From positions 1-22,155 of the IMG/VR virus record IMGVR_UViG_2684622582_000011: 22,155 nt of DNA; one strand, given 5' to 3'. The DNA comes from a virus (Duplodnaviria; Heunggongvirae; Uroviricota; Caudoviricetes). Each line of letters starts with the position of its first letter. Position 1 is the first letter of the stretch. Position numbers: made by a program. Below, piece by piece: positions 18,001 to 21,000 of the stretch.

Positions 18001-21000
18001 TTCTCTTTCAGGCGTCGGGTCTGGTCATCAAACCCTTTCGTTGCGGCCTCGTTAGCCGCCTGCAGTGCCCCGGCCTCATCGCCGGAACGCTGCAACTGGG
18101 CAACATACGCAATCTGCTCCGCCGTTACGTTATGAAACTGGTGCGCCATCGCCGCCAGCCCCGACGTCGGGTCACTGGTCAGCTTCCCGAAGGCTTCAGC
18201 AACTTTTTCCACCTCCACGCCAGATGCAGAAGCAAAACGCGCCACACTCTGGCTGATTGCCTCAAACTGCTCACCGCCACGCACACCGGCATTCACCAGC
18301 GCCGTCAGTGATTCGCTGGTCTGGTTAAACGTCAGCCCTGCCGCCTGCCCGGCTCTGGACAGGGACAGCATACGATCGGCCGTCAGCCCGGCCTGATTAC
18401 CGGAAAGAATCAGCGTTTTATTGAACTCAGACAGGGTCCGGTCGCCCTGATACCAGGCATACGCCAGCGTACCGGTTGCCGCTACCAGTGCGGCGATCCC
18501 CGCCACCGGCAGGCTGACCGCACCGGCAAGCCCCCTGAACATGGGGATCAGCCCGCCGAAGGAGTCCTTCACCTGACCGCCCTGTTGCAGCAGGATAAGC
18601 CACGGGTTCTGCCCCCCTGCAAGCTGCGTGGCCACGTCAGTGAACTGCGCAGGCAGCATACGCATGGCGGCTTTATACTGCCCGACGGAAATCCCCGCTT
18701 TCTGTGCAGCCAGCGCCTGCCGGTTCATCGACTGTTCAACGACTGCCGCTGTTTTTTTCGCATCACTTTCCGTACCGGAAAAATGACGCCTGACTCTGGC
18801 CATCTGCTCGTCAAATCTGGCCGCATCCAGACTTAAATCAATGACCAGATCGCCTACCGGTTCAGCCATACCGGACTCCTCCTGCGATCCCTTCTGATAC
18901 TGTCATCAGCATTACGTCATCCTCCGTCATATCCGCCACATCCGGGGGCGCGGGGATAATTTCATTCCCGTCCGGATCAAAGCGGACGCCTCCGGCAAGC
19001 CCTGCTGCTTTCTGCATCAGCACATCATCTTCAGACGCATCATCAACCTCACGCCGGTTCAGCAGACTGAAATCCAGCGGATGCAGATCCGGATCGCTGA
19101 AAAACAGGCTGAGCATGGTGTACGTCAGCCCGGAAAAGTGCATATCCAGCAGAACATCATGAAAATAATGGGTGCTGTAAAAGCGGTGCCAGTCGGCATA
19201 CTCCGTGGATGACATCCCGGCAAGCATGGCGCGCCAGTCGGGTCGCCCCATCTCGCGCGCCAGTTTCAGGGCAAAACTCAGCTCACCGTCGAACACTTTC
19301 CCGCAGACACAGGCTCTGCAGGCCCGGCGTCTTCTGTCTGCTCAGGAGCATTATTCACCACAAACTCAGACATACCGGACAGACGCATTACCACATTTTC
19401 AGCCTGAGCAATTGCCTCTGTGGGCCAGGTGGTAAGCACTTCCTGCTCAATCTGTTTAACGGCTTCATCCATGGACGGCATCTTTGTCTTCTGCGGATGG
19501 TTATGCCACAGGGACATCGCTACCAGAAAAGCGCCGGTTCTGACGAGATCTTCCACGCTCACCAGCAGGTTATCGCCACCTCCCGCCCGCTCTGCCTGTC
19601 GTTTCAGCAGGGCGAGATGCTCAATACGCTGCAGGGCTGACAGTTCAGAAAGCGTGACGCTTACGCCGTTATATTCAAATGATTCAGTTTTCAGGAACAT
19701 CGCTGACTCTCCGGATTAACTGTCGGTGACGGTGATTTCTGCAACCGCAGCAAGTTCACCATTACCGGATACGACCGGAATGTTGACCTTACCTGCAGCA
19801 ACGCCGTTCACGGTGATGGTCATACCACTGACCGACACGGTGGCTTTTGTTTTATCCGCTGACACTGCACGGAAGCTCTTGTCGGTTGCGCCCTCCGGCT
19901 GGAATGCCACGGTCAGCGTGGTGCTCTTCCCTTTCACCACCGAGGTGCTGGCAGGCGTCACGGTCATGCCGGTTGCCGCTGTTACCGTGCTGCGATCTTC
20001 AGCCATCGACGGACGGCCCACATTGGTGACCTTCACTGTGCGGGTGATCACTTCCTTCGCTGTCACCGCCTTACCGATACTGCTGACCCAGCCACGGAAC
20101 ACATCGACCGTACCGTTCGGGAAGCGGATTTTATAGGCACGGGTATCACCTTCATTAAACCACGCCAGCAGCGCCTGCTGCCCCTGCTCTCCGGGCATCC
20201 ACGCCAGCGTGAAGCTGGTATCTCCGGCGGATTTCTGCCCCTGCCCGGTCGCAGTCCAGTCCGCATCTTCATCATCGAGATAGCTGTCGTCATAGGGCTC
20301 TGCGGTCAGTTCGCCGGGCGTCAGGTCTTTAACTTTTGCCAGACGCGACCAGTCAACGTCTGAAAGCGGGTTCGCATAAGGGTCGCCGTTCCCCTGATAA
20401 ACCCACAGGGTGGTTCCGGCACCTTTCACCGGTATTGCTGGATTTGGTACAGGCATATCGTCCTCACATTTCATAGGTAATGACATAAGTCAGATCGGCT
20501 GAACTCCACAGGCCCGCATCATCATCGCGCCGGTAGTCATAGCCGCTGGCCACCATACTGGTGATCAAATCTGACAGTGCCGGGATATCGCTCATCACCG
20601 GATAAATCCGGGACTCCATCCACGCATCCAGCTCTGAATCCGGCACCTGAGCAGGCAGGAAAACTTCGATATGCAGCTCCGCCTGCCAGGTATCGCTGTC
20701 CAGCTCTTCGCCCGTGTATTCAGCGCCGGTGAGATAAACGGCAATTGCCGGAAAATCCGCCTCATCAAAAACAACGGGGCGACCATCAAAAAGCGTCGCC
20801 CCGGTATCATGTTTCTCCAGTGCATCCAGTACGGCTGCACGGAGTTCAGTATGTTTCATCGCTTTATCACAATCCTCAGTTGTTGTTTCAGCGCATAGCT
20901 CAGTTCTTTAGGCAGACGTTCGCGCCGGATACGGTTAACGTTCTCATCAAAAGCCTGTTTCAGTGGGGCCGCCATCGGAATTTTCACCACCTGAATGGGA

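What the first reader, a model, noticed from the sequence alone, without database searches (positions are those of the whole stretch)
19286..19292. Conserved G-T programmed -1 frameshift site
The heptamer GGGAAAG lies on the minus strand immediately before the G stop, and the T frame opens there. This reproduces the lambda mechanism that yields G and the G-T fusion at a fixed ratio, and it is a useful internal check that the tail module is intact and probably functional.
Basis: partly seen in the sequence, partly recalled or inferred. Interest (0 to 1): 0.25.

Follow-up and report, generated by a model that had tools for sequence, protein, structure and literature searches.

The report
Lambda-type G–T tail chaperone frameshift site

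Summary
The heptamer GGGAAAG is real, but it lies at window 19296..19302 (minus strand), not 19286..19292. In the G frame it reads G GGA AAG, the register needed for a -1 slip, 15 nt (5 codons) before the G stop. The -1 frame then stays open for 144 codons (T), giving a predicted 279-aa G-T fusion. G and T match the Pfam families for lambda gpG and gpT and sit between the tail tube gene V and the tape measure gene H. The 839-bp G-T region is 91.8% identical to lambda 9711..10549, and the site plus about 40 nt on each side is identical to lambda's mapped site (10109-10115). All 308 related loci keep a slip-prone heptamer at this position (GGGAAAG, GGAAAAG, AAAAAAG, one GGCAAAG). Among 18 in-frame X XXY YYZ heptamers in the window's genes, only this one opens a long -1 ORF. 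One addition: a 71-nt two-helix RNA fold starts 7 nt downstream (19218..19288). It is conserved in the lambda, N15 and phi80 clades, has the strongest thermodynamic signal along T and shows reduced synonymous variation, but only one covarying pair. A weaker form of this fold was predicted computationally in 2014. It may be the moderate stimulator that raises slipping from about 0.3% to about 4%.

The parts
19296..19302 (-). Slippery heptamer G GGA AAG (X XXY YYZ in the G frame), the site of the -1 slip
   Evidence: Identical to lambda 10109-10115. Conserved at the same position in related loci.
19278..19700 (-). Gene G, tail assembly chaperone, 140 aa; stop TGA at 19278..19280, 15 nt after the heptamer
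   Evidence: ORF, translation. Pfam PF06894 Phage_TAC_2 at 2.8e-53, covering 1-125 of 126 profile positions. 85.7% aa identity to lambda G.
18862..19341 (-). The -1 (T) reading frame, open from 19341 to stop TGA at 18862..18864. The part translated after the slip is 18865..19296 (144 codons)
   Evidence: Pfam PF06223 Phage_tail_T at 1.3e-12. Annotated in lambda as T, 144 aa, at 10115..10549.
18862..19700 (-). Coding span of the predicted 279-aa G-T fusion: the zero frame to AAG at 19296..19298, then base G at 19296 is read again as the first base of GTG
   Evidence: Fusion built. The length (279 aa) and motif position (codon 135) match the gpG cluster G_GGA_AAG_4 in Sharma et al. 2014, Table S6.
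19218..19288 (-). Candidate 3' stimulatory RNA fold, starting 7 nt after the heptamer. Outer helix 19281..19288 (CGGUGAGC) pairs with 19218..19225 (GCUUGCCG); inner helix 19252..19262 pairs with 19227..19237. The G stop codon lies inside the fold, immediately 3' of the outer 5' arm
   Evidence: MFE -42.2 kcal/mol, z = -2.35. Predicted independently in the lambda, E. albertii-type, HK225, Klebsiella and phi80-type sequences with P(outer helix) 0.39-1.00, but P = 0 in the Gifsy-1/Tritos clade. Global minimum of a sliding z-score scan along T, mean z -3.37 at columns 13-87. Synonymous variation is reduced. Only one covarying pair. Hypothesis, not shown.
19716..20486 (-). Gene V (major tail tube protein), the upstream neighbour and the binding partner of the T domain in lambda
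   Evidence: Pfam PF16461 lambda TTP at 1.5e-69 plus Big_2. The true start is probably 10 codons inside this maximal ORF, as in lambda and E. coli M19 annotations (741 nt).
16290..18869 (-). Gene H (tape measure protein, 859 aa), the downstream neighbour. Its start overlaps the T stop by 8 nt, as in lambda. It is the binding partner of the G domain
   Evidence: Pfam PF06791 at 2.5e-69 and PF09718 at 3.1e-21. Same overlap as lambda T/H.

Best explanation
Window 19296..19302 (minus strand) is the orthologue of the phage lambda G/G-T programmed -1 ribosomal frameshift site, carried by a lambdoid prophage. Most ribosomes translating G read ...GCG GGA AAG TGT TCG ACG GTG AGC and stop at TGA, which yields the 140-aa chaperone gpG. 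A small share slip back one base while tRNA-Gly and tRNA-Lys occupy GGA AAG. [quoted passage not shown] By homology with lambda, the G part of both proteins coats the tape measure protein H, and the T part recruits the tail tube protein V, so that tails assemble to the correct length. Neither protein stays in the virion. Shown here: the sequence, the register, the frames, the homology, the synteny and the conservation. Inferred from lambda experiments: that slipping occurs here, how often, and what the proteins do. A further, weaker inference is that the 71-nt two-helix fold starting 7 nt downstream (19218..19288) acts as a moderate 3' stimulator.
For: The register and frames were read directly from the sequence. 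G matches PF06894 at 2.8e-53 and T matches PF06223 at 1.3e-12, with V, U and Z upstream and H downstream. The 839-bp G-T region aligns end to end with lambda 9711..10549 at 91.8% identity, and the heptamer plus about 40 nt on each side is identical to lambda and HK630. For conservation, 94 of 102 lambda-like loci carry the same heptamer 15 nt before the stop with a 144-codon -1 ORF, and most of the others are cut short by contig ends. The 71-73%-identical E. albertii and Stx2a-phage copies keep GGGAAAG although the upstream flank has diverged. Distant G homologues (31-50% aa identity) have A AAA AAG or G GAA AAG at the aligned position, 3-15 nt before the stop, each followed by a -1 ORF of 108-147 codons. 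In all, 308 of 308 loci carry GGAAAAG (200), GGGAAAG (105), AAAAAAG (2) or GGCAAAG (1). Within the window it is the only one of 18 in-frame slippery heptamers with a long -1 ORF. The literature establishes the lambda mechanism, the 30:1 ratio and the protein roles (PMC5009743), zero-frame reading about 96% of the time and sensitivity to tRNA-Lys modification (PMC3296357), and G_GGA_AAG as one of the three most efficient heptamers in E. coli (PMC4066793). That last paper lists the gpG cluster as a true case with a 279-aa product and the motif at codon 135. For the 3' fold. Bare GGGAAAG gives 0.277% frameshifting against 3.80% with moderate stimulators (Sharma et al. 2014, supplementary frameshift-efficiency table), and lambda's native level is about 4%.
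Against: Nothing in the sequence contradicts the main claim. There are three limits. No expression or protein data exist for this prophage. The heptamer count alone is not significant. RefSeq and GenBank annotate T as a separate 144-aa CDS starting at the GTG inside the heptamer, with no slippage join; this is an annotation convention, not evidence. The 3' fold sub-claim has real weaknesses. Only one of 20 consensus pairs covaries, and the pair-count measures equal the shuffled values. Eleven of the 20 pairs never vary. The Gifsy-1/Tritos clade does not form the fold. Sharma et al. found no significant synonymous-site suppression for this cluster, and their hairpin was no more stable than the local average (ddG 0.020 +/- 0.095). 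My recollection, which I could not check, is that Levin et al. 1993 found only a modest downstream effect.
Confidence: 0.95

Rival explanations
1. T is an independent gene that starts at GTG 19296, as GenBank and RefSeq records draw it, and the heptamer overlapping that start is a coincidence.
For: Lambda J02459, HK630 and E. coli M19 (RefSeq) all annotate T as a stand-alone 144-aa CDS beginning at this GTG.
Against: There is no SD-like motif in the 30 nt upstream. In distant homologues the annotated T start moves or has no start codon at that place, while the slip-prone heptamer stays at the aligned position and the -1 ORF always overlaps the end of G. HK630 names the product 'tail assembly protein GT', and the HK225, mEp213 and Gifsy-1 records describe it as the downstream half of a frameshift product. 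Reviews of the lambda experiments describe a fusion, not a free gpT.
Confidence: 0.02
2. The site is intact only as a relic: the prophage is defective, so G-T frameshifting never takes place in this host.
For: The window shows only the tail half of a prophage. There is an integrase fragment (102-aa ORF at 1779..2087 matching profile positions 112-165 of 172). An unmatched 626-nt AT-rich insert containing terminator-like hairpins interrupts the I-J junction of the late operon. Lambdoid tail modules occur about twice per genome in 3,754 of 5,426 complete E. coli genomes, and many of those prophages are cryptic.
Against: All 15 tail-region ORFs are full length against their Pfam profiles. A copy that really has decayed looks different: the Shigella flexneri copy (L028) has indels and in-frame stops just after the heptamer. 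This rival concerns whether the site is used, not what it is.
Confidence: 0.2
3. The shift to the T frame is made by RNA polymerase slipping on the A run (transcriptional slippage), not by the ribosome.
For: Relatives with AAAAAAG have a 6-A run, and transcriptional slippage is used elsewhere for similar two-product genes (PMC5009743).
Against: The A run here is only 3 nt, far shorter than the long homopolymer runs associated with polymerase slippage (general knowledge, not checked here). The conserved feature is the codon register X XXY YYZ ending in A AAG, which matters for tRNA re-pairing. In lambda, changing tRNA-Lys U34 modification changes the G:G-T ratio, and that is a ribosomal effect (PMC3296357). 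The review explicitly contrasts lambda GT ribosomal frameshifting with transcriptional slippage.
Confidence: 0.01
4. The downstream 'structure' is a by-product of coding for the conserved T peptide (LKLAREMGRPDWRAMLAGM) and of shared ancestry or recombination, and the heptamer works without any stimulator.
For: Eleven of 20 consensus pairs are invariant, only one pair covaries, and the pair-count measures equal the shuffled values. The fold is absent from the Gifsy-1/Tritos clade, which presumably still frameshifts. Sharma et al. found no significant synonymous suppression and ddG of about 0 for this cluster.
Against: Bare GGGAAAG gives 0.277% in E. coli, about 13-fold below lambda's roughly 4%, while moderate stimulators give 3.8%. 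The fold begins 7 nt (lambda type) or 5 nt (HK225 type, 10-bp stem) after the heptamer, within the 3-9 nt spacers listed for proven bacterial cases. The window bounded by the outer helix is the minimum of the z-score scan in 6 of 7 diverged representatives. Synonymous entropy is 0.30 near the site against 0.56 further on (p = 0.025), and 0.19 at paired against 0.51 at unpaired third positions. Pair 16-84 is A-U (41), G-C (18) or G-U (1) and is never broken in 60 sequences.
Confidence: 0.5

Closest known systems
Bacteriophage lambda G / G-T programmed -1 frameshift (Levin, Hendrix and Casjens 1993; Xu, Hendrix and Duda 2004, 2013, 2014; cited through PMC5009743 and PMC3296357)
   Same: Same heptamer G GGA AAG in the same register, 15 nt before the G stop. 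The roughly 90 nt around it are identical. G is 140 aa, T is 144 codons and the fusion is 279 aa. The V-G-T-H order and the 8-nt T/H overlap are the same.
   Different: G is only 85.7% identical in protein sequence to lambda G, and the G-T DNA is 91.8% identical. The host prophage carries a cdtABC toxin operon and a 626-nt insert between I and J that lambda lacks. No experiments exist on this copy.
N15 / HK225 / phi80 / mEp213 / Gifsy-1 tail chaperone frameshift sites (G GAA AAG type)
   Same: Homologous G and T proteins, a slip site at the aligned position, and a -1 ORF of 108-113 codons. The HK225, phi80 and Klebsiella types also form the same two-helix downstream fold.
   Different: The heptamer GGAAAAG is not a strict X XXY YYZ: the P-site tRNA-Glu would re-pair GAA to GGA with a G-U in the middle position (my inference). 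In Tritos, Gifsy-1 and Kp4865-4 the G stop lies 3 nt after the heptamer. The Tritos/Gifsy-1 clade lacks the fold.
Stx-phage tail assembly chaperone frameshift, A AAA AAG type (ECs1801 cluster A_AAA_AAG_25 in Sharma et al. 2014)
   Same: Homologous G-T pair (G 43-46% identical), heptamer at the same aligned position 15 nt before the stop, and downstream sequence close to the E. albertii type.
   Different: The heptamer is the dnaX/IS-type A AAA AAG rather than G GGA AAG.
IS911 / IS3 and dnaX -1 frameshift signals in E. coli
   Same: They use heptamers ending in A AAG, decoded by the single tRNA-Lys (mnm5s2UUU), and are helped by a 3' structure with a 5-9 nt spacer (PMC4066793; PMC5009743).
   Different: Those signals often also have an upstream SD-like stimulator, which is absent here. 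Their efficiencies are much higher (up to 43-54% with the IS3 pseudoknot). Their 3' structures are tested experimentally, whereas the one here is only predicted.

Membership tests
Lambda-type G/G-T tail assembly chaperone -1 PRF | Two overlapping ORFs located between the major tail (tube) gene and the tape measure gene | tested here: met
   V at 19716..20486, G at 19278..19700, T frame at 18862..19341, H at 16290..18869, all on the minus strand.
Lambda-type G/G-T tail assembly chaperone -1 PRF | The upstream ORF is a gpG-family chaperone | tested here: met
   PF06894 at 2.8e-53, 179.5 bits (cutoff 27), covering 1-125 of 126 profile positions.
Lambda-type G/G-T tail assembly chaperone -1 PRF | The downstream ORF is in the -1 frame relative to G and encodes a gpT-family domain | tested here: met
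   Frame arithmetic. PF06223 at 1.3e-12, 48.4 bits (cutoff 25.9), covering 1-73 of 73 profile positions.
Lambda-type G/G-T tail assembly chaperone -1 PRF | A slippery heptamer X XXY YYZ in the zero-frame register, inside the overlap between the last upstream -1-frame stop and the G stop | tested here: met
   G GGA AAG at 19296..19302. The overlap is 19281..19341 (61 nt), and this is the only such heptamer in it.
Lambda-type G/G-T tail assembly chaperone -1 PRF | Positional identity with the experimentally mapped lambda site | tested here: met
   The site aligns to lambda 10109-10115. Alignment columns 44-95 are identical in the window, lambda and HK630.
Lambda-type G/G-T tail assembly chaperone -1 PRF | The slip site is conserved across diverged relatives while the flanks vary | tested here: met
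   308 of 308 loci have a slip-prone heptamer ending in AAAG at the aligned position, in four variants.
Lambda-type G/G-T tail assembly chaperone -1 PRF | T has no translation start of its own (no RBS) | tested here: inconclusive
   There is no SD-like motif in the 30 nt upstream of the GTG, but sequence alone cannot exclude weak independent initiation.
Lambda-type G/G-T tail assembly chaperone -1 PRF | A G-T fusion protein is actually made, at a few percent of G, and is needed for tail assembly | not testable with these tools
   This needs protein detection or genetics. It is known for lambda only (PMC5009743; PMC3296357).
-1 PRF signals with a 3' stimulatory RNA structure | A stable structure starting 5-9 nt after the heptamer and supported by covariation | tested here: inconclusive
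   The spacer is 7 nt, z = -2.35, and the fold is the minimum of the scan. However, only 1 of 20 pairs covaries and the pair-count statistics equal the shuffled values. Sharma et al. predicted a hairpin in 51% of the cluster with ddG of about 0.
-1 PRF signals with an upstream SD-like stimulator (dnaX / IS911 type) | A GGAG/AGGA-like motif 6-17 nt upstream of the heptamer | tested here: not met
   None in the 30 nt upstream. This agrees with 'SD: N' for the gpG cluster in Sharma et al. Table S4.

The most novel reading that the evidence does not exclude
The 71-nt two-helix RNA fold at 19218..19288, which starts 7 nt after the heptamer and encloses the G stop codon, is a real and conserved 3' stimulator shared by the lambda, N15/HK225 and phi80 tail modules. 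On this reading it raises slipping on G GGA AAG or G GAA AAG from the bare-motif level of about 0.3% to the roughly 4% needed for the 30:1 G:G-T ratio. That would give the classic lambda frameshift, which I recall (unchecked) being described as having no defined stimulator, a defined RNA element that could be tested by mutation.
Probability: 0.4. Interest if true: 0.35.

Novelty: already known. Interest (0 to 1): 0.12.

Why it matters
The site itself only confirms that this prophage has a standard lambda tail-assembly module, and it serves as a quality check on the sequence: there is no indel at a position where one base would matter. In practice it means G-T should be annotated as a 279-aa slippage product, not as a separate 144-aa T gene, which is how most database records still draw it. 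The only open scientific point is whether the conserved downstream fold sets the frameshift level. That is a modest refinement of a 30-year-old system and was already hinted at by a computational screen in 2014.

Tried and rejected
(1) Heptamer count as evidence: 6 copies against 3.2 expected is not significant, so I dropped it in favour of register and context.

(2) The genome-contig scan for diverged relatives mostly returned lambda DNA contaminating unrelated assemblies. Only the E. albertii and Shigella copies were informative.

(3) Covariation as proof of the 3' fold. The first 15-sequence test looked strong. On 60 distinct sequences restricted to the consensus helices, only one pair covaries and the pair-count measures equal the shuffled values. 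I therefore downgraded the fold to a hypothesis.

(4) Rfam has no family at the site or anywhere in the window at gathering threshold. The permissive hits (miRNA and snoRNA models, E about 1) are noise.

(5) Upstream SD-like stimulator: none found.

(6) Literature on a lambda 3' stimulator. Xu et al. 2013 (PMC3762263) is not held, and three searches found no explicit statement. The Sharma et al. 2014 supplement supplied the only relevant data.

(7) The I-J insert has no match in complete E. coli genomes or in phages and no Pfam hit for its small ORFs. It remains unexplained.

(8) Structure prediction and the large protein-database searches were not run, because homology was already unambiguous.
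Full report
**1. The observation**

Reading the minus strand and searching for the pattern places GGGAAAG at window 19296..19302.

The G ORF runs from ATG 19700 to TGA 19278..19280 and encodes 140 aa. Its last codons are GCG GGA AAG TGT TCG ACG GTG AGC TGA. The heptamer is therefore in the X XXY YYZ register (G GGA AAG), 15 nt or five codons before the stop.

The -1 frame is open from 19341 to the stop at 18862..18864. Reading GGG AAA GTG TTC... gives 144 codons after the slip and a predicted 279-aa fusion. The overlap in which a slip would produce a fusion is 61 nt long (19281..19341).

The heptamer count alone means little: 6 copies against 3.2 +/- 1.8 expected, and 10 of 100 shuffles reach 6. 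Context settles the matter. There are 18 in-frame X XXY YYZ heptamers in 5,587 codons of the window's genes. Only this one ends in A AAG, and only this one is followed by a long -1 ORF that passes the zero-frame stop.

**2. What it is**

- **Protein families.** G matches Pfam PF06894 (lambda tail assembly chaperone G) at 2.8e-53. The -1 ORF matches PF06223 (minor tail protein T) at 1.3e-12. The neighbours are Z, U and V upstream and the tape measure protein H downstream.
- **Similarity to lambda.** The 839-bp G-T span aligns end to end with lambda J02459 positions 9711..10549 at 91.8% identity. There G (140 aa), T (144 aa) and H are annotated with the same overlaps.
- **The site itself.** The heptamer corresponds to lambda 10109-10115. 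About 40 nt on each side are identical in the window, lambda and HK630.
- **How common it is.** The U-V-G-T-H block occurs in 3,754 of 5,426 complete E. coli genomes, with a median of two places per genome. The best match is only 95.1% identical.

**3. Conservation**

Among 102 lambda-like loci from genome and viral contig collections, 94 have GGGAAAG 15 nt before the G stop followed by a 144-codon -1 ORF. Most of the others are cut short by contig ends.

The E. albertii and Stx2a-phage copies (G 71-73% identical) keep GGGAAAG although the upstream flank differs.

Distant G homologues (31-50% identity) carry other slip-prone heptamers at the aligned position:
- A AAA AAG in Stx1_1380 and Stx2_95.
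- G GAA AAG in HK225, phi80, Kp4865-4, Tritos, mEp213 and Gifsy-1.

In each of these the heptamer lies 3-15 nt before the stop and is followed by a -1 ORF of 108-147 codons.

After three more viral-contig scans, 308 loci aligned without gaps over the heptamer plus 96 nt. Their heptamers are GGAAAAG (200), GGGAAAG (105), AAAAAAG (2) and GGCAAAG (1). All keep A AAG in the A-site position.

A Shigella flexneri copy (L028) shows what decay looks like, with indels and in-frame stops right after the heptamer.

**4. Mechanism**

What follows comes from the literature on lambda, not from this sequence.
- Low-level -1 frameshifting links synthesis of gpG and gpGT at about 30:1.
- gpG and the G part of gpGT bind the tape measure protein gpH. 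[quoted passage not shown]
- Neither protein is in the virion (PMC5009743).
- The zero frame is kept about 96% of the time, and hypomodified tRNA-Lys (mnm5s2U34) raises slipping and lowers phage yield (PMC3296357; PMC7618472).
- G_GGA_AAG is one of the three most efficient heptamers in E. coli (PMC4066793).
- That study lists the gpG cluster (G_GGA_AAG_4, 74 genes) as a true case, with the motif at codon 135 and a 279-aa product. These are exactly the values I derived for this window.

There is no SD-like motif in the 30 nt upstream. This agrees with their 'SD: N'.

**5. A possible 3' stimulator**

*Why one is expected.* In the Sharma et al. reporter, bare GGGAAAG gave 0.277 +/- 0.011% frameshifting, 3.80% with the moderate IS911 stimulators and 43% with the IS3 pseudoknot. 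Lambda's native level of about 4% is roughly 13-fold above the bare motif. This is an inference across different experiments, but it suggests that some context stimulator exists.

*The fold.* The 96 nt after the heptamer fold to -42.2 kcal/mol, z = -2.35, with 4 of 200 shuffles folding as well. The structure has two parts:
- An 8-bp outer helix (19281..19288 with 19218..19225) that starts 7 nt after the heptamer.
- A GC-rich inner helix (19252..19262 with 19227..19237).

The G stop codon sits just inside the outer helix.

*Evidence for it.*
- Single-sequence folding of diverged representatives predicts the same outer helix with probability 0.94 (window), 0.98 (E. albertii type), 0.99 (HK225), 0.98 (Kp4865-4), 0.89 and 1.00 (two further types) and 0.39 (phi80 type).
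- In the HK225 type the outer stem is 10 bp with a 5-nt spacer.
- A sliding 75-nt z-score scan over the first 240 nt of T in seven representatives has its global minimum (mean z -3.37) at columns 13-87, exactly the segment bounded by the outer helix.
- At codons with conserved amino acids, normalised synonymous entropy is 0.30 for codons 6-29 against 0.56 for codons 30-80 (one-sided Mann-Whitney p = 0.025). It is 0.19 at paired and 0.51 at unpaired third positions.

*Evidence against it.*
- The probability of the outer helix is 0.00 in five Gifsy-1/Tritos-type sequences.
- The first 15-sequence covariation test looked good: 6 pairs with double changes against 2.5 +/- 1.0 in shuffles. On 60 distinct sequences and the consensus helices only, 92.5% of cells pair, but just one pair covaries (16-84: A-U 41, G-C 18, G-U 1, none broken). 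The pair-count measures equal the shuffled values, and 11 of 20 pairs never vary.
- Sharma et al. had already flagged a 'downstream structure: Y' for this cluster. It was weak: a hairpin in 51% of genes, 54 nt long, 7-nt spacer, 4-bp first stem, ddG 0.020 +/- 0.095, and no significant synonymous suppression.
- My recollection, which I could not check, is that Levin et al. 1993 saw only a modest downstream effect.

I therefore report the fold as a moderately supported hypothesis, at about 0.4-0.5.

**6. Rival explanations**

- **Independent initiation of T at the GTG.** This is how databases draw it. It is contradicted by the missing RBS and by the comparative pattern.
- **Transcriptional slippage.** This is implausible on a 3-A run, and it does not fit the tRNA-modification effect seen in lambda.
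- **A defective prophage in which the site is never used.** This cannot be excluded, but it concerns use, not identity. All tail ORFs give full-length family matches.

**7. Comparison and novelty**

This is a member of the lambda G/G-T family by every sequence criterion that can be tested. Only actual production of the fusion is untestable here. It is already known and routinely recognised. Rfam has no model for the element.

**8. Verdict**

Interest is low.

Noticed in passing
window 2508..4745 (minus strand): A complete cytolethal distending toxin operon lies downstream of the tail-fibre genes, in a low-GC (0.29-0.44) arm: cdtA at 3891..4745 (284 aa), cdtB at 3080..3925 (281 aa) and cdtC at 2508..3083 (191 aa). 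It is only about 84% identical to E. coli type I cdt and 97.5% identical to a single complete E. coli genome (strain E7-1N7). This is a CDT-carrying lambdoid prophage with a divergent cdt allele.
   Followed up: partly
window 13316..13941: The gap between tail genes I and J is 626 nt (60 nt in lambda). It is AT-rich (GC about 0.40), has no ORF with a Pfam hit, and has no match in 5,426 complete E. coli genomes or in 50,697 phage records, even with sensitive blastn. It holds two copies of a 42-nt repeat (13446-13487 and 13592-13633, 76% identical, 146 nt apart). Each copy is a GC hairpin plus a T-run on the plus strand, that is, antisense to the tail operon. There are 5 terminator-like sites against 0.7 expected. 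This could be a pair of small antisense transcription units or a moron.
   Followed up: partly
window 13337..13354 (minus strand): A terminator-like hairpin (ATGCGCCTGCGGGCGCAT followed by a T-run) lies on the coding strand just upstream of the likely J start (ATG 13315, [18 protein letters not shown]...), inside the late operon.
   Followed up: no
window 1779..2087 (plus strand): A 102-aa ORF matches only positions 112-165 of the 172-position phage integrase profile (PF00589, 1.7e-09). It is an integrase fragment, which suggests a prophage end or a remnant of another element.
   Followed up: no
window 4745..6661: About 1.9 kb with no ORF of 90 aa or more on either strand and very low GC (0.29-0.37), between cdtA and the DUF1353 gene.
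   Followed up: no
loci L005-L027 (genome contigs): Near-identical lambda G-T DNA turns up in assemblies labelled Neobacillus, Oceanobacillus, Kitasatospora, Shewanella, Leeuwenhoekiella, Legionella, Bradyrhizobium and others. Many are low-coverage contigs, some about 48.4 kb long. This looks like lambda control-DNA contamination of public assemblies.
   Followed up: no
L001, L002, L003 (lambda J02459, HK630, E. coli M19 RefSeq): Database records still annotate T as a separate 144-aa CDS starting at the GTG inside the heptamer, with no ribosomal-slippage join, so the 279-aa G-T product is missing from these annotations.
   Followed up: yes
locus L284 (IMGVR_UViG_3300048929_000058): One HK225-type locus has GGCAAAG in place of GGAAAAG. 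This breaks the heptamer pattern but keeps the A AAG tetramer. It could be a natural low-efficiency variant or a sequencing error.
   Followed up: no
locus L028 (Shigella flexneri CP182557): This is a decayed copy of the G-T region. The heptamer is intact, but there are indels just downstream (GAGCTCATTTCGCC in place of GAGCTGAGTTTTGCC) and several in-frame stops in T.
   Followed up: partly
window 18000..21000: The best match for the tail region in any complete E. coli genome is only 95.1% (mouse isolates M6-M19), and 11 records in total fall in the 95-99% band. The host of this prophage may lie outside the commonly sequenced E. coli lineages.
   Followed up: no
PMC3296357 main text: The body text of Maynard et al. 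2012 prints the lambda slippery sequence as GGGTTTG (GGT-TTG / GGG-TTT), while their Table 1 gives the correct GGGAAAG. This is a typographical error that could mislead text mining.
   Followed up: yes
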